Shown piece after piece: positions 2,444 to 53,734 of a stretch of DNA of 64,000 nt. Location of the stretch: NCBI RefSeq assembly GCF_009914755.1, contig NC_060927.1, one strand, 5' to 3'. Made by a program: the position numbers and the translations under genes. The notes below the pieces were generated by a model. That model saw only the letters and a list, made by a program, of their open reading frames with translations, made no database searches and was not told the origin of the DNA. Each line of letters opens with the position of its first letter. The first letter of the stretch is position 1. This DNA comes from the human T2T-CHM13v2.0 reference genome, Homo sapiens.

Positions 2444-3140
2444 ATCAAGGAAAAAAAAATCTCATTCCAGTAATAAAAATGTCAGTCAATATAATAAGCA
2501 AGGCCTTAATGTGATCTCAACATTCTTTCTGTCCCAATTTATGACTTTGGGCTAGAAAGCTATAGGAAATTATTTTTCTGCATTTTGCTTCTCTTATGTT
2601 ACCCAGATAGCTGGGCTTTTTAAATTTAAATTTTTATTTTTTTTTCCTCCTGTACTAAACAAGGAAAGGGGGTAGTGATATTGGACTGTGAAGTTCTTAC
2701 TTCCACTGTAATAATCTGCTTCTGTCTGTCTGGGTTGGTGGGTATTCAAAGGCAGTTCCTTCTCAAGGCGCACTTTTGTGGGTCCCTCTGAGATTATCTT
2801 GCTGAAAACATATAATTGCATAGCAGTGCATGGACAATGCAACTTCTTTGGATGACTGCTTCTAAGAAGGAGTCACTTTTTGGAAATATAACCACAACAT
2901 CATCATGACTAGAAAAAAATATTAATTCCTAATGTCATCAAATATTCAGCAGGTATTCAATTACCTCTTTTTTTTTCAGTGTATTTGTTTGAATTGGGAT
3001 CCAAAAAAGTTTTATATAATACCATTGGTTATCTCTTTTATTTTATGGTTTATTCTTTCATTATAAGATATAAATTTAAATATATATATACAGCTCTGCT
3101 TTTTTGGATAAATAGTAGCATAACATACACTTTTCTTTAA

Positions 3141-31196: not shown

Positions 31197-34185
31197 TTAT
31201 CTACTTTAGTTCACTCATTCCACAAATATCTGTTGAGGGCCTACTCTGTGGCAGGCATTGCCAGGAGCTGGGACAGAAAGCCATGTGGGTCTTCATGGAG
31301 AGTCCTGTCCAAGACAGTCCACTACTTTCCATGTGACATGGGTGAAGGCAGGGAAATTAGTACATTTCTATTCTTTTAACATTTTCTTCAATATTTCTCA
31401 AAAAAAAAAGGAGGCACTGCTGAGTAGGGGTTAAGGACATGGGCTATTAGAATCAGACAGACTTGAATTCAAGACACATTTTCATTTGAGAAGCAGGGAT
31501 AACAACACCTACTTTTAGGCTCTTGTGAAGGTGAATGAGCCATGCACATGAAGCACTGGCACAGTGCATGGCCCACAGCTAGCTCCCAGAAAAGCTGCCT
31601 GCTCTCATTAGAAACTAGTACTTTAGAAGGCAATAGGGTGATGGCCAAGAGCCAGGGCTTGCAGCCAGATGGCCTGGGTTGAATCTCAGCTCCTCCACCA
31701 GCTGGCTGTGTGACCCTGGGTGGGTGATTTCAAGTCTCTATGTGGATGGTGCTGCATCTGCCAGTGAGGAATTATGACAGTGCCCACCTCTGATGGGTGG
31801 TTATGAAGATTAAAGGGGTTAATACACACAAAGTGCACTGGGCATTTCAAATATGATTAGACTTTCACAAATTTGGCATGCCTGCCTTCTTTAGCAATCT
31901 ATCTTCTGCAAATCATGAGATACTTATATATGCTTTTGTCAAACACAGGCAACCATTATACACCCCTTCTTGTATCAATTTGATCTTCCAACTTCCACTT
32001 CCTGTATTATGCATTTACTAGAACTGTATTTAGGGGGCAGTAGTGCCTGGTGGGAAAAGCATATGCTTTTCAGCCAGAGTGGGTGGGTTTAAGTTCAGGC
32101 TTTTTTGCTGAATGACCCTGACACCCTGTAGCATTGATACTCTCAGAGCCACGTGGACCTCATCTGTAAATTGGTCATGAAAGTTAATGCTGGGCTTATC
32201 TACACTGAGTATCAAAAGATCATGAATGAAAAATTGCTTCCACCTTGCCAAATGCTGGGGAAGTGGCCTGCTGCTGATTATAATTGGGAGGCAGCTCAGT
32301 GTTAAGTTCTAGAATTAGACTGGGTTGGAATTCTGGCTCTAACTGGTAGCTCTGGAGTCTTGGTGTCTCTAGTTTCCTCATCTAGAGAATGAGGGATAAC
32401 GGCAGAACCTGCCCCAGAGAGCTGGTGTGAGGATTAATTGAAACGCTTAGCACCAGCCCATATACAGAAAGAGCCCAATAAGTGTTAGCTGTTATTATCA
32501 TTACTCTTAGTCTATCTTCCCACCAGATTGTGAAAAGGGACCCCACGGAATTCATCTTTATATTCCTAGCACCCATGAAAATGCTCCTTAAGTCTGCTGA
32601 ATTCAGGAATGTTGGAAGGAGTGGATGAATGAATACATTTAACCTGGTTCAAAGCCCTTCTAGATCATCTCAGAGACTCAGCAGAGTCTTCTTAGAGCCT
32701 GGCTGGACTCAGTGTTTTCATTATCGTTTTACTGCTTTGATTTTGGTAAACTTTATTTCTGAGGATTCACCCTTGGATTGGCATGGGCTCTCACATCAGA
32801 CTGAAGTAGATTGAGTCTCACCTCCACTTTCTAACTGTAGGACTTGAAGTATTTTACAACCCTTTCTGAATCTCCATGTCCTTATATATAAAATAGGGCT
32901 AAACCCACCTACCTCTTGGAGTTGCTGAGCTTACTAGATATACATGAAAGAGCTTGGCACACATAGAGGGTGATTAGTAAAAGGTGGTGGTGATTCTCAT
33001 TTTACTTACCTTGAAGGTCCTAGTTCAGGTTGACCCTACTTTGAATATTAGCTGGATCTCTGAACTTTGTTGTGGAAATAATTACTTCCAATACAACATG
33101 CATTTGCCAGGGACTTCCACTGCGCCTCTATGGGGCATGACCATTAACTGCTTCTTGCTGCCTGCCTGAGTGGTACCTTGGGCCTGTGGATTGACCCTGG
33201 GGGCATGTTCTTGGTGTCCTCAGCAGTCCCACTGGTCTTCAGGAAAGATTGGAGGGCAACTGTGGGAGGTGTAAAGCCAGCCACATCATGTTCCCAGCCT
33301 GCAGATCCCTGTTTTGAAGATGGCCATAAGCATGGCTTCAGAGCTCCACAGATGGGAGCTCCACGTCCTATTTGTGTGTGACCGTGATTAACGTAGCCTC
33401 TCTGAGCCTCAGTTTCTTTATCTGTAAAATGAGGACAACACAAGATCATGTCTGCAAAGAACAAACTATCTTATAGGGAAAGAAGGAATCCTCAGTAAGC
33501 TCTACAGTGAATTTACATCATAGAGATGTTTGTTACTATGTCACTATGATGCAGATTCACTACGGACTTTATCAAGAGGACACTAAATGGAGCAAAAGAT
33601 GGGGTGGATTTCTACCATGCTTCTAAAACCACCTGACTTTACAATTATAACTGGATTTTCAGTCTTAAAAAACTTTGATTTTGATAATTTTCGGAAAGTG
33701 TTAGTAATCAAACACAAATGCAGTTGGTACATTTTGGAGATGAAACTTACTCCAAATAATAATTTTAAAAATCTTAATCAGCATTTGATAAAACTGTGTT
33801 GACTGTAACAGTGATTCTCAATTTTGGTTGCACAAAATACATATGGGAACCTTTATGAAAATAGCAATGTTTAGAGCCCACCCCTGACAAATCAAAATCT
33901 CTGGGGTGGGTGGGAGGAGGTGAGCATTTAAAAAAGCTTATTAAGTGATTTCTGCAGCCAGAGTTGAGACCACTGGTTTGGATGCATCTTGGTACTGATC
34001 ATAAGCTTAATTCATATACTTGGCAGCTGAAGCTGTGAGCTAGCCATATATTAGAATCACCAGGTAGCTTTTAAAAATCCTGATGCCCCAACCCAGACCA
34101 ATGACATGGGTACTTTTAAAAGCTCCCTGGGTGATTCCCGTGTGCAAACTAACACTGAGCAACACAAGAATAAAGGAGTTATTTA

Positions 34186-34575
<390 letters not shown>

Positions 34576-36296: not shown

Positions 36297-36524
<228 letters not shown>

Positions 36525-37605
36525 TCACCACCTGGCAGCCTGAATTCAGGCAGGTGCTAAATGTCTCCAGTGCCTCATCCTGAGTGGTAGTAGACTCTGG
36601 CATTCTCTCATGGGGGAGAAAGGGTAGCTCCCTTAGGCAAGGGTAAAGGCACTACCTTAGTGAACATGTGCTTCTCCTCTAGAGCCTTCTACAACCCGGG
36701 TAGCACTGAGAGAAAGGCTTCTCTGCTGAGACAAAGGCTGTGAGGGTGGCGCTCAGGCAAGGGTCCCATACAGCAGTGAGGACAGTTAGGATCAGGATAT
36801 AGTTGAGGAACAGCATGACTTCCCCTTCTATAGGAATTAACAGGGGCACTATTTTTGCCCTCTATGTGAGGATGAAAATTATATATAGTTTCTTAGCCCA
36901 AATGGGGATTTTGAGGATGAAGGACAAAGGGATGGGATTTTAGCGTGAACCAGGGTTGGTGGGTATTGGCTGTAGATGGACTAGTCGCACAGGCCACCAC
37001 TGACCTGGGAGGAATGTGCTGCTGATGGAGTGGGAAAGCGTACTTTGAAATAGCCATGGACTGTGCTCACTAACCATGATAACTGCCCTGTAGATCGTCT
37101 AAACCACATGGGATTCATCTGGGGAGAGAGAAATTTTTGTGTGTTAAGCTTCTAAAACTGGAGGATTTATTATTGCAGCTAGCCTAGTCTATCTTGACAA
37201 ATATGTTATTTTGAGACATTCCCTGTTATTCCTAGTTTAAGAGTGCCTGCCATAAATGAACGTTGAATTTTATTAAATGATTTTTCTGCAACTCTTGATT
37301 GTGTGATTTTTTTTCTCCTTTACTTAGTTAATAGGGTAAATTGCATTGATTAATTTTCTAATCCTAAACTAACACTGCATTCCTGAGATAAGCCCTATTT
37401 GGCCAAGATATATTACCTTTCTTGTGTACTGGTGGGTTCACTTTGCTAATTTGTTTTTTAGGTAGTAAGACAGGTCTATAATTTTCCTTTCTCTCACTGT
37501 CCTAATCAGATTTTGGTATCAAGGTTGTGCTAGCCTCATAAAAAGCGTTGGAGAGTTCTCTCTTTCTATGCTGTAAGAGATCTTGTGTGTTAGGACTGAA
37601 ATAAC

Positions 37606-37848
37606 TTTCTTTTTGAGACAGAGTCTTGCTCTGTCACCCAGGCTGGAGTGCAGTGGTGCAATCTCAGCCTCCCGAGTAGCTGAGACTACAGGCATGCACC
37701 ACCATGCCCGACCAATTTTTAAATTTTTAGTAGAGACAGGGTTTTGCCATGTTGGCTAGGCTGGTCTCCAACCCCTGACCTCAAGTGATCCACCCATCTC
37801 GGCCTCCCAAAGTGCTGGGATTACAGCCATGAGCCACCGTGCCCAGCC
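37606..37848 (-). mobile_element. Alu with an internal deletion
   Basis: Reverse Alu lacking about 40 bp after gcaatctcag; TSD ctgaaataac. Confidence 0.88.
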
Positions 37849-37923
37849 TGAAATAACATTTTTTTCTGAGTGTTTTGTAGAACTCACCAGTGAAGTTTTG
37901 TGAGGCTAGAGTTTAATTTGTGT

Positions 37924-38084
37924 TGTCACTGACAGGAGAGATGATACCCTGGATGACCTGGTACATTCCTACATAAGAGAGAGCAGTGGTGTTGCACATA
38001 CAGACAGACGCTCGCCACCTGGCAGCCCGAATTCAGGCAGGTGCTAAATATCTCCAGTGCCTCATCCTGAGTGGGAGTAGACTC
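37924..38084 (-). repeat. 161-bp duplicate of the NMNAT3 intron/exon junction 36437-36597
   Basis: Direct alignment at offset 1487; about 9 mismatches counted by eye. Confidence 0.93.
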
Positions 38085-39301
38085 AGTAGTCAAATTTTTG
38101 ACTACTGATTTAATTTCCTTAATGATTATAATTCAGAATTTCACTTCTTCATTATGATTTTGGCAACTTACATTTTCCAGGATTTTATTCATCATATCTA
38201 AAATTTGAAATTTACTGGCATAAAGTTAGTTGTGATATTCTTTTTTTTTTGGCAATCACCGCTTTAATCAAGCAATGAAAGTTATCACAAATAATAGAAC
38301 AATTTGCATTGTGTGCATCCTAATTTGATACAACAATAAAGTATGAATTCACCTATGAATTGGTTAACCATACAATTTATCAGCTAAAAGGTTCATTTCT
38401 GAGAGTGAAATTACATGTTATTAATAATTATACCCAAACAATAGATATAAACTAGACATAGACAACTCTGGATTTATCCTTACCTGTAAGTATCCTAGCC
38501 AACATATTTAGACTGGAACTAATCACAATGAAACATTCAGACAATTGACCTGTCCTCTTCACAAAAGTCTAAGTCATGAAAAACAAAAACAGGACTACTC
38601 TAGATTAAAAGAGACTAAAGATACAGAATAACCAAATTGTGATGAGTTTAAATGCTATATGGGGGGAAGCTACAAGAGGTATTTTTGGGTCAATTAGGGA
38701 AATTTGAATATGGACAGTATATTAGATGATATTATGTAATTTTCATTAATTTTCTTAGGAGTGATAATGGTACTGTATTTATTATACAGGAGAACATCTT
38801 TTTTTTTTTTTTACACAAGTGTCATAGCAACTTTATTTGAAATAGTAGAAAATGGGAAACAAGTAGTGTAAATGTCCATCAACAGATAAACAGATAACAC
38901 TAATTGTAGCATATCCATACAACGAAATACTACTTGGCAATAAATGTATGACCTATGGATACATGCTACAACAAAAATGAGTGTCAAGTTATTTATTTTG
39001 TGTGAGAAAGCCAAACCAAAAAAAGGAAAAGAGTACATACTATATGATTCAATTTATATAATATTCCAGAAAATGTACCTAATCTATAATAAGTAGATAT
39101 AGATCATTGATTAGAGATGGGGTTGGAGAGCGTGGAAGTGTGCTGTGGGGAAAGCTGGATGAGAAAGATGATAAAAGTCAGGCAGAAACTTTGGCAGGGG
39201 TTGGATATGTTCATTTTCTAACTTGTAGTGATGGTCTCACGGCTGTACACATATGAGACAACTTTAATACTCTTGAAACATACGTAGTTTATTATATGTT
39301 A

Positions 39302-39653
<352 letters not shown>

Positions 39654-39748
39654 CCACATGTAAGGCAAAAAACAAAAGAGAAGATCTAACTTCTTAGTAA
39701 ATGTGTTCACCATTGGGGTGTTTATAAAAGAGATGTCATTCTTTATTA

Positions 39749-40098
<350 letters not shown>

Positions 40099-40356
40099 AG
40101 AAAATGTACACTTAATATTTAAGGGTGAAGTGTTACAAAGCCTGAAACTTACTTTCAATTGGTCAACAAAAAATATATATAATATATAAATACAAGCTCA
40201 CATATATAATAAAGAGAAATAGAGAAATAAAGTAAATGTGGCAAAATATATAGGTATTCAATGCAACTCTTCTTTCAAATTATCTGTAAGTTTGAAGTTT
40301 TTTCAAAATAAGTTGGAGGGAGGAGCAGTCCAAAAAAATATATATATATTTTTTAC

Positions 40357-40638
40357 CTTGAAGTCGCTCATCAGTGAATATTTTGTTTGTTTGGTTCCAG
40401 GTGCTATCTATAAATATAATTTTTTTCAGTGTTGTGCCTTTGCACTTGCTGTCATTCAAATCACAGAACGCTTGTTCTTCAGTTCTTTTGCGTTTAAAAG
40501 ATGACTTGTCAGGGTCATCATTTTTGCTGCTAACATTATTTTGAATCCTTTTTTGCAGATGAAAAGAAATATCTTTTATTGAGATAGACTGAGGTCCAGG
40601 AAAAACAAGTGCAACTTCATGGTCCTTTTCTTCATATT
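40357..40638 (-). CDS. Candidate retrocopy-derived NMNAT3 cassette exon, 282 nt (94 aa of DTWD1-like sequence)
   Basis: Acceptor TTTTCTTGTATTCCAG|AA and donor CAAG|GTAAAA. Phase 1 to phase 1 with no stop codon. Confidence 0.6.
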
Positions 40639-40925
40639 CTGGAATACAAGAAAACGTGTAAATGTTTGCAAATTCAGGTGCTAAGAGTTTTGCATGTATA
40701 GCAGTACTTTTACCATCTGTTTCATTTGGATGTTTAATGATGTCAATCTTCAATGGAAGTTTCACAAGTGGAATCTGTTCAATAGGTACATTTTCAACTG
40801 GAATGTAACATGTAGAGCAGTAGAACATTCTGGAACCACCACATTTGAGACATTTTGATCTCCCACTTTGCTGAGCTTTTTGAAGAACTTCTTGAGATGC
40901 TAAACATAAGTTTTGAAGGGGATCT

Positions 40926-41215
40926 TCTGAAGCTATGGAAGTAGTTTGTGACTGTTTTGTTTCCACAAAGTTTGAATTATTTTCTTCACTTCATTTGAGA
41001 AATATAGGTGGATTGAGAGACATTCTTCATTCAAACAAAAGTTTAACAGCTATTTCTAAAACACATATCATCTGAAGCTATGGAAGTAGTTTGTGACTGT
41101 TTTGTTTCCACAAAGTTTGAATTATTTTCTTCACTTCATTTGAGAAATATAGGTGGATTGAGAGACATTCTTCATTCAAACAAAAGTTTAACAGCTATTT
41201 CTAAAACACATATCA
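40926..41215. repeat. 145-bp tandem duplication (2 copies) in the DTWD1 retrocopy
   Basis: 40926-41070 and 41071-41215 appear identical by eye. Confidence 0.92.
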
Positions 41216-41635
41216 TATGTGCACTGCGAGTCCTCGAACAGCTCCACGCGTCTCCAGCTCTGCCCAAGCCCGAGCCACGCGACGGGCTGTGATCGCGCAC
41301 GGACCAGACGGTATGATATTCTTTTATCTGTTTAATGTCTTTTATCTGCACCATCTGCAGTGATGCCCATTTTCATTCCTAATGTTGGTTGTGACTTCTT
41401 TCTTTTTCCTTGGGCAATATTGCTAGAGGCTTGTCATTTCATTAGTTGGTTCTTTTCAAAGAACCAACTTCTGGCATATTAGTTTTCTCTACTGAAGCTT
41501 TGCTTTCTGTTTCACTAATTTCTGGTCTTATTTTAAATAATTCTATCCTTCTACTCTATTGGTGTTATTTTGCTATTCTTTTTCTAACTTCTTGTGATGT
41601 ATGCCTAACTAATTAATTTGCAGTCTGCCTTCTTT

Positions 41636-41875
41636 CCTTGAGAACTTGTTTGGAGGTTCTAGCAGAGGAGTGCAGCTACTTGTATACCCTTGACTGAAGA
41701 CCGGTCCTCCTCTATCGGGGATGGTCATCCTCTTCAGCCGAGCACGCAGCTTTGGGAGGGATGCACATGGAGCGGTGAGGGAGGAAGGGGAACCCGTCTA
41801 GGCAGCCAGATCAGCCGAATCAACTCTGGCAATCAATGGGGTGACAGATGTCTCAGCCAGATCACCCTCACATCC
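41636..41875 (-). pseudogene. 7SK snRNA pseudogene (RN7SKP-type), 3'-truncated at about nt 240
   Basis: Minus strand reads GGATGTGAGGGTGATCTGGCTGAGACATCTGTCACCCCATTGAT...CTAGAACCTCCAAACAAGTTCTCAAGG, matching the 5' three quarters of 7SK. Confidence 0.92.
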
Positions 41876-48900: not shown

Positions 48901-50356
48901 CTCAAGGAGGCCTGCCTGCCTCTGTAGGCTCCACCTCTGGGGGCAGGGTACAGACAAACAAAAAGACAGCAGTAACCTCTGCAGACTTAAATGTCCCTGT
49001 CTGACAGCTTTGAAGAGAGCAGTGGTTCTCCCAGCACGCAGCTGGAGATCTGAGAACGGGCAGACTGCCTCCTTAAGTGGGTCCCTGACCCCTGACCCCC
49101 GAGCAGCCTAACTGGGAGGCACCCCCCAGCAGGGGCAGACTGACACCTCACAAGGCCGGGTACTCCAACAGACCTGCAGCTGAGGGTCCTGTCTGTTAGA
49201 AGGAAAACTAACAAACAGAAAGGACATCCACACCAAAAACCCATCTGTACTTCACCATCATCAAAGACCAAAAGTAGATAAAACCACAAAGATGGGGAAA
49301 AAACAGAGCAGAAAAACTGGAAACTCTAAAAATCAGAGCGCCTCTCCTCCTCCAAAGGAACGCAGTTCCTCACCAGCAATGGAACAAAGCTGGATGGAGA
49401 ATGACTTTGACGAGCTGAGAGAAGAAGGCTTCAGACAATCAAATTACTCCAAGCTACGGGAGGAAATTCAAACCAAAGGCAAAGAAGCTGAAAACTTTGA
49501 AAAAAATTTAGAAGAATGTATAACTAGACTAACCAATACAGAGAAGTGCTTAAAGGAGCTGATGGAGCTGAAAACCAAGGCACGAGAACTATGTGAAGAA
49601 TGCAGAAGCCTCAGGAGCCGATGCGATCAAGTGGAAGAAAGGGTATCAGCGATGGAAGATGAAATGAATGAAATGAAGTGAGAAGGGAAGTTTAGAGAAA
49701 AAAGAATAAAAAGAAATGAGCAAAGTGTCCAAGAAATATGGGACTATGTGAAAAGACCAAATCTACGTCTGATTGGTGTACCTGAAAGTGACGGGGAGAA
49801 TGGAACCAAGTTGGAAAACACTCTGCAGGATATTATCCAGGAGAACTTCCCCAATCTAGCAAGGCAGGCCAACATTCAAATTCAGGAAATACAGAGAACT
49901 CCACAAAGATACTCCTCGAGAAGAGCAACTCCAAGACACATAATTGTCAGATTCACCAAAGTTGAAATGAAGGAAAAAATGTTAAGGGCAGCCAGAGAGA
50001 AAGGTTGGGTTACCCTCAAAGGGAAGCCCATCAGACTAACAGCAGATCTCTCAGCAGAAACTCTACAAGCCAGAAGAGAGTGGGGGCCAATATTCAACAT
50101 TCTTAAAGAAAAGAATTTTCAACCCAGAATTTCATATCCAGCCAAACTAAGCTTCATAAGTGAAGGAGAAATAAAATCCTTTACAGACAAGCAAATGCTG
50201 AGAGATTTTGTCACTACCAGGCCTGCCCTAAAAGAGCTCCTGAAGGAAGCACTAAACATGGAAAGGAACAACGGGTACCAGCCACTGCAAAATCATGCCA
50301 AAATATAAAGACCATTGAGACTAGGAGGAAACTGCATCAACTAACGAGCAAAATAA

Positions 50357-53734
<3,378 letters not shown>

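What the first reader, a model, noticed from the sequence alone, without database searches (positions are those of the whole stretch)
37888..38084. Duplicated splice acceptor creates an 81-nt candidate poison exon just upstream of the real exon
Seen: 37924-38084 copies 36437-36597 (about 152/161 identical), i.e. 116 nt of intron end plus the first 45 nt of the exon. The acceptor is kept (CTCTCTTATGTAG|GAATGTAC at 37968). The flanking old L1 supplies a near-consensus donor CTG|GTGAGT at 37888/37887. The resulting 81-nt exon keeps phase but reads [21 protein letters not shown]. Inference: inclusion would trigger NMD in the long isoform, or place a decoy uORF with the same ATG context before the MYQ start of the short isoform. 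It could also cause short-read mis-mapping.
Basis: partly seen in the sequence, partly recalled or inferred. Interest (0 to 1): 0.8.

Follow-up and report, generated by a model that had tools for sequence, protein, structure and literature searches.

The report
Duplicated NMNAT3 acceptor forms unannotated pseudoexon
A 161-base piece of the human NMNAT3 gene, carrying a working splice acceptor and the start of an exon, was copied into an old L1 repeat 1.5 kb upstream, making a complete-looking 81-base exon with a stop codon that no annotated transcript uses.

Summary
Window 37924-38084 is a gap-free 152/161 (94.4%) direct copy of 36437-36597, and the genome holds only these two copies.

- **Acceptor:** the copy keeps it. 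Positions -40 to -6 are identical, and only -5 and -4 differ.
- **Target:** the piece was cleanly inserted, with no poly-A or target-site duplication, into a sense-oriented ancient L1 ORF2.
- **Donor:** the L1 supplies CTG|GTGAGT 81 nt downstream. It matches 8/9 consensus positions and ranks 23rd of 2314 GT sites by U1 pairing, better than the real exon's own donor.
- **Reading frame:** phase and stop ([18 protein letters not shown]) hold for the long isoform, the short MYQ-start isoform and a DTWD1P1-derived isoform.

The functional inference is untested. None of the RefSeq exons listed for 23 transcripts matches the exon, and no paper found mentions it. Crude paired splice signals are common here: 12 of 23 strong donors have a plausible upstream acceptor.

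New context: 145 nt upstream lies the full 3.06-kb DTWD1P1 retrocopy, published as a great-ape-specific insertion. Its non-CpG divergence is the same as the duplication's (3.65% vs 3.27%).

Most likely this is a neutral, roughly hominoid-age templated insertion giving at most low-level unproductive splicing.

The parts
37924..38084 (-). 161-nt copy: 116 nt of intron end (branch-point region, pyrimidine tract, AG) plus the first 45 nt of the NMNAT3 exon, inserted into L1
   Evidence: 152/161 identical to 36437-36597 with no gaps. Only two copies in the genome. An L1 copy (L011) is colinear across the insertion point.
36437..36597 (-). Source of the duplication: the real intron/exon junction of NMNAT3 exon 36298-36481
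   Evidence: Annotated coding exon (hub table). It encodes [20 protein letters not shown]... in frame with the upstream coding exon.
37888..37968 (-). 81-nt candidate pseudoexon (unannotated)
   Evidence: Bounded by the copied AG acceptor and the L1 GT donor. Reads [22 protein letters not shown]. Not among the RefSeq exons listed by the hub.
37964..37966 (-). Copied ATG (the MYQ start codon of the short isoform), in the same GGAATGT context as the real one
   Evidence: Felici 2013 primer 4 shows the v1 start at this motif.
37913..37915 (-). In-frame TAA stop, in the L1-derived half of the pseudoexon
   Evidence: Translation. The stop occupies exon nt 54-56, 25 nt before the donor.
37879..37890 (-). 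5' splice site CTG|GTGAGTTCT from the L1 ORF2 codons T-G-E-F
   Evidence: 8 of 9 consensus positions; U1 duplex -9.2 kcal/mol; rank 23 of 2314 minus-strand GT sites in 17606-64000. The +5 G is derived: 94 of the 100 listed genome copies of the 18-mer have GTGAAT and 6 have GTGAGT (422 matches in all).
38085..38240 (-). Ancient L1 ORF2 fragment (about aa 410-466) between the DTWD1P1 poly-A and the insert
   Evidence: tblastn with the window's own L1 ORF2 fragment, aa 410-471 to 38240-38064. Matches at 64-84% identity to dispersed genome copies.
37848..37923 (-). Continuation of the same L1 ORF2 after the insert; supplies the stop codon and the donor
   Evidence: L011 colinearity. The 18-mer TTCACTGGTGARTTCTAC occurs 422 times in the genome against 0 for the reversed control.
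37613..37847 (-). Alu, sense to NMNAT3, 40 nt downstream of the donor, flanked by the direct repeat GTTATTTCAG
   Evidence: Rfam Metazoa_SRP sub-threshold matches on the minus strand. Sequence. Inverted-repeat partner of the Alus at 39343-40070 and 34174-34473 (I1-I10).
37291..37595 (-). Same L1 ORF2 continuing into the reverse-transcriptase start (aa 502-595)
   Evidence: tblastn, 61% and 47% identity, E = 3e-13.
38241..41301 (-). DTWD1P1 processed retrocopy, full extent (annotated only as 40357-41071). Poly-A at 38241-38250, target-site duplication AAAAGAATATCA, two later Alus inside
   Evidence: 94-97% identity to chr15 exons and 3'UTR. TSD and poly-A read. Equals ASSV03066 of He et al. 2019 after coordinate conversion.
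36298..36481 (-). Real NMNAT3 exon whose acceptor was copied; its own donor is weaker than the pseudoexon's
   Evidence: Donor GAG|GTAATG: 6 of 9 consensus positions, -6.7 kcal/mol, top 4.7%.

Best explanation
A 161-nt stretch spanning the 3' end of the 48.6-kb NMNAT3 intron and the first 45 nt of the following coding exon was copied once, in direct orientation. It was inserted 1,487 nt upstream into a sense-oriented, decayed L1 ORF2.

Origin (inferred). The insertion has no poly-A and no target-site duplication, and it did not measurably delete or add L1 sequence. It therefore looks like a locally templated insertion made during break repair or a replication template switch, not L1-mediated retrotransposition. 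Its divergence puts it at about the same age as the neighbouring great-ape-specific DTWD1P1 retrocopy, roughly 15-30 million years.

Structure (shown). By accident, the L1 carries a strong 5' splice site 81 nt downstream of the copied acceptor. That site was improved by a derived A-to-G change at +5. An in-frame TAA lies between acceptor and donor. The result is a structurally complete pseudoexon.

Consequence if spliced in (follows from the sequence):
- It truncates the long isoform after [21 protein letters not shown].
- It truncates the DTWD1P1-NMNAT3 chimeric frame in the same way. Both products would be NMD-eligible.
- It places an 18-codon uORF ahead of the MYQ start of the short isoform.

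Usage (inferred). My reading is that this is a neutral by-product. It is skipped in nearly all transcripts and contributes at most low-level unproductive splicing. It is not an evolved regulator.
For: Shown:
- Duplication and its uniqueness.
- Clean insertion into L1 ORF2. L011 aligns to the left flank up to 9 nt before the junction and to the right flank from its 3rd nt, colinear at target position about 198. ORF2 colinearity runs from 42355 to 37291, interrupted only by identifiable insertions.
- No A-tail or direct repeat at the junctions.
- Same -40..-6 acceptor region as the functional exon.
- Donor in the top 1% of GT sites (23 of 2314). The +5 G is derived (6 of 100 listed copies).
- Phase 1 confirmed at the upstream coding exon, which ends ...CAA ACA G|gtcagt.
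- Stop codon.
- Same outcome for the exon 40357-40638 isoform.

Age:
- Non-CpG divergence is 5/153 = 3.27% for the pair, against 38/1042 = 3.65% for the DTWD1 3'UTR and its retrocopy.
- The retrocopy is present in human, chimpanzee, gorilla and orangutan and absent in macaque (He et al. 2019, Supplementary Data 4 row 410).

For 'mostly unused':
- The hub's list of NMNAT3 exons from 23 RefSeq transcripts does not include the exon.
- No paper was found.
- In-silico pseudoexons are common in this gene (12 of 23 strong donors).
- The element is evolutionarily young, unlike conserved regulatory poison exons.
Against: - The acceptor is not a generic look-alike. It is a copy of a proven acceptor with the same branch-point and pyrimidine-tract region and 39 identical exonic bases.
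- It is transcribed before the real one, and its donor is stronger than the real exon's donor. On signals alone one would expect noticeable inclusion.
- NMD and ambiguous short junction anchors would both hide such transcripts from annotation, so their absence from RefSeq is weak evidence.
- NMNAT3 transcripts are present in human cells while the protein is undetectable (Felici 2013, abstract and passages). That is compatible with an extra layer of unproductive processing.
- The local RNA fold offers no explanation for repression (z = 0.15).
- The dating rests on 9 differences, so its confidence interval is wide.
- I could not establish whether macaque has the duplication.
Confidence: 0.65

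Rival explanations
1. The pseudoexon is a working poison exon and decoy uORF. It is included in an appreciable, possibly regulated fraction of NMNAT3 pre-mRNAs and lowers NMNAT3 output through NMD (long and chimeric isoforms) or through translational interference (MYQ-start isoform).
For: - Copied functional acceptor with identical -40..-6 and 39 exonic nt.
- Donor in the top 1% and stronger than the real exon's.
- Phase-preserving 81 nt with a PTC that satisfies the NMD rule.
- Identical ATG context for the uORF.
- Human NMNAT3 mRNAs are present but the proteins are undetectable (Felici 2013).
- Inclusion would be under-detected, because anchors up to 39 nt are ambiguous and NMD removes the product.
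Against: - Not among the exons the hub lists for 23 RefSeq transcripts.
- No mention in the papers searched.
- Young and lineage-restricted, with the same neutral-looking divergence as a neighbouring pseudogene.
- Comparable paired signals are frequent and unused in the same gene.
- Felici et al. already account for poor translation by a different, shared uORF.
Confidence: 0.15
2. Decoy-exon reading. The pseudoexon is recognised by U2 and U1 but rarely ligated. It would act as a non-productive exon-definition unit that slows removal of the 48.6-kb intron, or competes with the real acceptor 1.4 kb downstream, favouring intron retention or use of alternative exons.
For: - Complete core signals.
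- Position close to the 3' end of a very long intron (47.1 kb upstream and 1.4 kb downstream of the pseudoexon).
- The decoy-exon mechanism is known from other genes (recalled, not checked here).
Against: - No data here on intron retention.
- No conservation.
- Nothing distinguishes it from the neutral reading.
Confidence: 0.05
3. Fully silenced pseudoexon. The site is actively kept out of mRNA, for example by proteins that coat sense-strand A-rich L1 RNA, or by pairing between the sense Alu 40 nt downstream and the antisense Alus 1.4-1.9 kb upstream, which would loop it out. This would be a special case of the best explanation with zero inclusion.
For: - The donor and half the exon are sense L1.
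- Inverted Alu arms 37663-37862/39775-39974 (80% complementary) and 37740-37863/39327-39450 (84%) bracket the pseudoexon.
- Suppression of intronic transposon splice signals is described in PMC10901741 (search listing and start of abstract only; the proteins involved are recalled).
Against: - Purely circumstantial.
- The local fold shows no sequestration of either splice site.
- Alu pairing could equally promote back-splicing.
Confidence: 0.12
4. Origin rival. The 161-nt insertion and the DTWD1P1 retrocopy 145 nt away arose in one complex L1-endonuclease-triggered event, with repair synthesis copying nearby sequence, rather than in two independent events.
For: - Same L1 target.
- 145 nt apart, same orientation.
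- Statistically indistinguishable non-CpG divergence (3.27% against 3.65%).
Against: - DTWD1P1 has a textbook 12-nt target-site duplication and poly-A that close the event on their own.
- The published insertion length (3,076 bp) matches the retrocopy alone.
- No separate 161-bp ape-specific insertion appears between table rows 410 and 411. That hints the duplication may already exist in macaque, although IDs 03067-03077 are missing from the table.
Confidence: 0.12

Closest known systems
Unannotated tandem exon duplications in introns (Letunic et al. 2002 as cited in, and Ivanov & Pervouchine 2022, PMC9013439; passages seen)
   Same: An intronic segment homologous to a neighbouring annotated exon of the same gene, in the same orientation, with its acceptor retained.
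   Different: Only 45 of the exon's 184 nt are copied. The 3' half and the donor come from an L1. The copy carries a stop codon and cannot act as a mutually exclusive coding alternative.
Poison (NMD-coupled) cassette exons and intronic pseudoexons
   Same: A short exon between real exons with an in-frame premature stop more than 50 nt upstream of a later junction, and good splice-site signals.
   Different: No evidence of inclusion, no conservation, and no regulator known. Classical regulatory poison exons are usually deeply conserved (recalled). Pathogenic pseudoexons are usually activated by a point mutation, not built from a copied acceptor.
Templated sequence insertions, class 2 (PMC5110952; search listing and start of abstract only)
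   Same: A short stretch templated from elsewhere in the genome, inserted without the poly-A or target-site-duplication hallmarks of L1 retrotransposition.
   Different: The template here lies only 1.3 kb away in the same transcription unit and orientation. The insertion is apparently fixed and old, not a polymorphism. Whether the intermediate was DNA or unspliced pre-mRNA cannot be told.
Exonisation of sense L1 sequence through cryptic L1 splice sites
   Same: The 5' splice site, the stop codon and 36 of the 81 exon bases derive from the sense strand of L1 ORF2.
   Different: The L1 provides only the donor. The acceptor is imported from the host gene itself, which is unusual. No transcript evidence.
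ASSV03066, the ape-specific 3,076-bp insertion in NMNAT3 (He et al. 2019, PMC6749001; passages and Supplementary Data 4 and 6)
   Same: Same intron, same old L1, 145 nt away, same apparent age. It also changes NMNAT3 splicing potential, through exon 40357-40638.
   Different: That insertion is the DTWD1 processed retrocopy, made by L1 machinery, and it is annotated as exonised. The 161-nt duplication is outside its coordinates and is not described in the passages or table rows I saw.

Membership tests
Poison exon (alternative splicing coupled to NMD) | Flanked by a usable 3' splice site and 5' splice site | tested here: met
   The acceptor is identical to a used one apart from -5 and -4. The donor matches 8/9 consensus positions and ranks in the top 1% by U1 pairing. 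These are signal-level tests only.
Poison exon (alternative splicing coupled to NMD) | In-frame premature stop more than about 50 nt upstream of a downstream exon junction | tested here: met
   TAA at exon nt 54-56. Phase 1 confirmed at the upstream exon. Two further junctions lie downstream, the nearest 184 nt beyond the pseudoexon's own junction (hub exon table).
Poison exon (alternative splicing coupled to NMD) | Observed inclusion in transcripts, stabilised when NMD is blocked | not testable with these tools
   No RNA-seq or EST resource was available. The hub's RefSeq exon list (23 transcripts) lacks the exon. No paper was found.
Poison exon (alternative splicing coupled to NMD) | Evolutionary conservation or regulated inclusion | tested here: inconclusive
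   Pair divergence of 5.6% (non-CpG 3.3%) matches that of a neighbouring neutral retrocopy, which suggests no special constraint. No other primate sequence was available.
Tandem exon duplication | Homology between an annotated exon and a nearby intronic segment, same strand | tested here: met
   152/161 identity, direct orientation, 1,487 nt apart.
Tandem exon duplication | The duplicate covers the whole exon with both splice sites | tested here: not met
   Only the first 45 of 184 exon nt are copied, and homology stops at 37924/36437. The donor is L1-derived.
L1-mediated retrocopy (target-primed reverse transcription) | 3' poly-A and flanking target-site duplication | tested here: not met
   Neither is present at the junctions of the 161-nt insert. 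Both are present for DTWD1P1.
Templated sequence insertion (end-joining type) | Insert templated from another genomic site, no poly-A or TSD, little or no loss of target sequence | tested here: met
   Unique source 1.3 kb away. The L1 is colinear across the site within a few nt (1 of 8 L1 copies examined gave a clear two-sided alignment). Junction microhomology could not be resolved.
Recursive-splicing exon | Splicing to the acceptor regenerates a GT 5' splice site at the junction | tested here: not met
   The upstream exon ends ...ACAG and the pseudoexon starts GAATGT. The junction ACAG|GAATGT has no GT.

The most novel reading that the evidence does not exclude
A hominoid-age remodelling of the last 5 kb of the long NMNAT3 intron (DTWD1 retrocopy plus a copied acceptor) created a lineage-specific poison exon and decoy start. 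This would divert a large share of human NMNAT3 pre-mRNA into NMD or into a dead-end uORF. It would help explain why human cells carry NMNAT3 transcripts but no detectable NMNAT3 protein and rely on NAD import into mitochondria. The exon would have escaped annotation because NMD removes it and because junction reads with anchors up to 39 nt are assigned to the annotated acceptor.
Probability: 0.07. Interest if true: 0.6.

Novelty: new member of a known kind. Interest (0 to 1): 0.3.

Why it matters
If the pseudoexon is used, it would be a lineage-specific brake on a human NAD-synthesis gene whose protein is puzzlingly hard to detect.

It would also be a clean natural experiment in splice-site competition. 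The branch point, pyrimidine tract, AG and first 39 exon bases are the same in both copies, the donors differ, and the two sites lie 1.5 kb apart.

Practically, the copy is a trap for junction quantification and for junction-spanning primers at the NMNAT3 MYQ exon. If it is not used, it shows that even a copied functional acceptor paired with a strong donor does not suffice for exon recognition. Either way the biology is an instance of known kinds: pseudoexon, partial exon duplication, templated insertion.

Tried and rejected
- **Trained splice predictors:** maxentpy, maxentscan, spliceai and pangolin are not installed. I used consensus matches, U1 duplex energy and pyrimidine fraction instead.
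- **Pfam on the decayed L1 next to the site:** Reading the stops as X gave 0 families in 3 of 3 frames. L1 identity was shown instead with the window's younger L1 ORF2 used in tblastn.
- **L1 empty-site alignment:** only 1 of 8 L1 copies (L011) aligned clearly on both sides. The other 7 were truncated, interrupted by Alus or too diverged on the right flank, with right-flank scores of 9-11.
- **RNA structure sequestering the splice sites:** none (MFE -37.8 kcal/mol, z = 0.15, 103 of 200 shuffles fold as well).
- **Recursive splicing:** rejected, because no GT is regenerated at the junction.
- **Retrotransposition origin of the 161-nt piece:** rejected, because there is no poly-A or TSD.
- **Junction microhomology:** not resolvable from the diverged L1.
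- **Literature:**
  - 'NMNAT3' with 'splice variant'.
  - The five-term search: none of the 25 papers listed contains NMNAT3.
  - 'NMNAT3' with 'nonsense-mediated': 5 papers hold both terms, 4 listed; only He et al. is relevant.
  - 'NMNAT3' with 'DTWD1': 1 unrelated paper.
  - 'NMNAT3' with 'ape-specific': the same work only.
  - None describes the duplication or the pseudoexon.
- **He et al. Supplementary Data:** searched for hg38 prefixes 1395804, 1395805 and 1395806, with 0 hits. No row lies between 139,580,804 and 139,459,650. IDs ASSV03067-03077 are absent from that table and two files are stored cut, so this does not show that macaque has the copy.
- **Papers tool:** Paper reading closed. 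The supplements of PMC9013439 and anything further in He et al. (Supplementary Fig. 15 is a PDF, not held) could not be seen and may bear on whether the duplicate was catalogued.

Full report
**1. The observation**

Read on the minus strand (the sense strand of NMNAT3), window 38084-37924 repeats 36597-36437 without gaps. There are 9 mismatches in 161 positions, 94.4% identity (family D3).

A search of the whole assembly with window 37900-38100 found two places only: the query itself, and the source at E = 1.7e-64 (2 of 2 candidates scored). This is a unique duplication and not a dispersed repeat.

The nine differences, numbered from the acceptor, are at:
- -107, -82, -60, -46 and -41 in the upstream intron part;
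- -5 (C>T) and -4 (C>G) next to the acceptor;
- +40 and +41 in the exon part.

Four of the nine are in CpG context. Positions -40 to -6 are identical. The AG-exclusion zone (44 nt), the pyrimidine tract (0.76 against 0.82 pyrimidine in -20..-3) and any branch point within it are therefore shared with the real exon.

**2. Which copy is the original, and where the copy sits**

The lower copy belongs to the annotated coding exon 36298-36481.

The upper copy interrupts an ancient L1.
- A 610-aa L1 ORF2 fragment from elsewhere in the window (50372-52201; Pfam Exo_endo_phos 1.8e-19, RVT_1 3.1e-15) aligns by tblastn colinearly along the minus strand. The segments are aa 137-305 at 42355-41879, aa 332-386 at 41555-41385, aa 410-471 at 38240-38064, aa 502-532 at 37555-37463 and aa 544-595 at 37449-37291.
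- The gaps between these segments are identifiable later insertions:
  - a 7SK pseudogene (41586-41875, 232 bits);
  - the DTWD1 retrocopy;
  - the 161-nt piece;
  - an Alu (37613-37847).
- Of 8 dispersed L1 copies examined, 1 (L011) aligned well on both sides of the insert. The left flank projects to target position about 198 and the right flank starts at about 198. The insertion therefore neither removed nor added more than a few L1 bases. The other 7 copies were uninformative on the right flank.
- There is no A-tail and no direct repeat at the junctions.

**3. The pseudoexon**

- *Acceptor:* cactgctctctcttatgtag|GAATGTAC, first exon base 37968.
- *Donor:* CTG|GTGAGT, with the G of GT at 37887. 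It matches 8 of 9 consensus positions.
- *Donor strength:* its duplex energy with the U1 5' end is -9.2 kcal/mol. It ranks 23rd of 2314 minus-strand GT sites between 17606 and 64000. The real exon's own donor, GAG|GTAATG, matches 6 of 9, scores -6.7 kcal/mol and falls in the top 4.7%.
- *Donor origin:* it lies in the L1 codons for T-G-E-F. The 18-mer TTCACTGGTGARTTCTAC occurs 422 times in the genome (reversed control 0). Of the 100 places listed, 94 read GTGAAT and 6 read GTGAGT. The +5 G of this copy is therefore a derived change that improves the site.
- *Reading:* the exon is 81 nt and reads [21 protein letters not shown].

**4. Frame in the actual isoforms**

- *Long isoform.* Using primer 1 of Felici et al. 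I located the first coding exon at window 85141-85033. It ends ...CAC CAA ACA G|gtcagt, which is 109 coding nt and phase 1. Its last G joins GA of the next exon to give Gly, followed by MYQ. The intron is 48,551 nt, and the pseudoexon splits it into 47,064 nt and 1,406 nt.
- *Short isoform (NMNAT3v1).* Its 5'UTR exon ends ...CCCAATTAATAAG|gtaaat at window 95380 and joins GAATGTACC. The pseudoexon would offer the same ATG context, followed by an 18-codon uORF.
- *Isoforms with exon 40357-40638.* That exon is open in one frame and continues in frame into G-MYQ. The pseudoexon would stop that frame as well.

**5. Surroundings**

Window 38251-39310 matches chr15:47444224-47445287 at 95% identity, and 40113-41071 matches two further chr15 segments at 94-97%.

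With a poly-A at 38241-38250 and the target-site duplication AAAAGAATATCA on both sides, this is the complete DTWD1 processed retrocopy. It spans about 38241-41301 and is much longer than the annotated DTWD1P1 (40357-41071).

He et al. 2019 (PMC6749001) report ASSV03066.
- It is an insertion in NMNAT3 at hg38 chr3:139,580,804-139,583,880.
- Its length is 3,076 bp in GRCh38, 3,084 in a second human assembly, 2,935 in chimpanzee, 2,948 in gorilla and 2,905 in orangutan.
- It is absent in macaque.
- Their table gives the gene as 139,560,180-139,678,017. Equating its low end with the hub's 17606 gives an offset of 2,747,426, which places the insertion at window 38230-41306. That is the retrocopy.

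The 161-nt piece lies 145 nt beyond the retrocopy's target-site duplication and outside those coordinates.

**6. Age**

| Pair | Non-CpG divergence | All-site divergence |
|---|---|---|
| 161-nt copy vs source | 5/153 = 3.27% | 5.59% |
| DTWD1 3'UTR vs retrocopy | 38/1042 = 3.65% | 4.16% |

The two events are of indistinguishable age. Given the species distribution of the retrocopy, that points to the hominoid stem, give or take, roughly 15-30 million years. The divergence times are recalled, and the interval is wide with only 9 differences.

He et al.'s Supplementary Data 4 lists no other ape-specific variant between hg38 139,580,804 and 139,459,650. IDs 03067-03077 are missing from that table, so whether macaque has the copy remains open.

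**7. Is it used?**

I could not test this directly.

Against use:
- The hub's exon list for 23 RefSeq transcripts lacks the exon.
- No paper was found.
- By a crude rule, paired signals are common. The rule asks for a donor at least as good as this one and an upstream AG at 50-250 nt with at least 0.75 pyrimidines and no nearby AG. It is met by 12 of 23 strong donors in the gene span, including another unannotated pair at 38483-38568.

For use:
- The acceptor is a copy of a proven one.
- It is met first by the polymerase.
- It is paired with a better donor than the real exon has.
- Annotation would be blind to an NMD target whose upstream junction reads, with anchors up to 39 nt, fit the annotated acceptor equally well.

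The local fold is unremarkable (z = 0.15).

Inverted Alus bracket the pseudoexon: arms 37663-37862/39775-39974 at 80% and 37740-37863/39327-39450 at 84%. The donor is sense L1 RNA, a class reported to be kept out of mRNAs (PMC10901741, abstract start only). Either could favour skipping, but this is inference.

**8. Verdict**

The sequence observation is right in every detail. The mechanism proposed is possible, but no evidence available here shows it happens. The best-supported reading is a neutral, locally templated insertion of hominoid age that built a complete but unannotated pseudoexon, with at most low-level unproductive splicing (0.65). A working poison exon or decoy uORF remains possible (0.15). 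It is a new instance of known kinds, and interest is modest.

Noticed in passing
window 38241-41301 (-): DTWD1P1 is a complete processed retrocopy of about 3.06 kb, with poly-A (38241-38250) and target-site duplication AAAAGAATATCA. That is far longer than the annotated 40357-41071. After coordinate conversion it equals the published great-ape-specific insertion ASSV03066 (He et al. 2019).
   Followed up: yes
window 40357-40638 (-): The alternative NMNAT3 exon derived from the DTWD1 retrocopy is open in one frame (YEEKDHEV...TDERLQ) and runs in frame into G-MYQVIQ of the next NMNAT3 exon. This gives a DTWD1-NMNAT3 chimeric reading frame, probably the 'lineage-specific protein' of He et al. Its donor AAG|GTAAAA is weak (7/9, -6.8 kcal/mol). 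The last exon of COPB2-DT overlaps it on the other strand.
   Followed up: partly
window 41586-41875 (-): The Rfam 7SK match (232 bits, model 1-331) is 50 nt longer than the annotated RN7SKP124 (41636-41875). It is inserted into the same old L1 ORF2 as the retrocopy and the 161-nt piece.
   Followed up: no
window 34174-34473, 37613-37847, 39343-39621, 39790-40070: Alus in opposite orientations bracket both the pseudoexon and the real exon 36298-36481, with arms 73-87% complementary. Such pairs could promote looping-out, back-splicing or RNA editing.
   Followed up: no
window 36471-36481 and 37958-37968 (-): The junction-spanning reverse primer 4 of Felici et al. 2013, used to prove the NMNAT3v1 transcript, matches the start of both the real exon and the pseudoexon. 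That assay cannot tell which acceptor was used.
   Followed up: partly
window 49748-52623 (+): A much younger L1, antisense to NMNAT3, still has an intact-looking ORF1 C-terminal part (Transposase_22, 5.9e-64) and a 610-aa open ORF2 stretch with endonuclease and the start of the reverse transcriptase.
   Followed up: partly
window 38483-38568 (-): Another unannotated in-silico pseudoexon lies inside the DTWD1 3'UTR copy: ...tcatgacttag|ACT, 85 nt, donor CAG|GTAAGG at -11.5 kcal/mol.
   Followed up: no
L031 1560-1575 (-), i.e. window about 95,4xx, outside the window: The uORF that Felici et al. describe (gccATGaagcggactgctgctccctggctcccactctga) is visible in the v1 5'UTR exon. It ends 40 nt before the exon's donor.
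   Followed up: no
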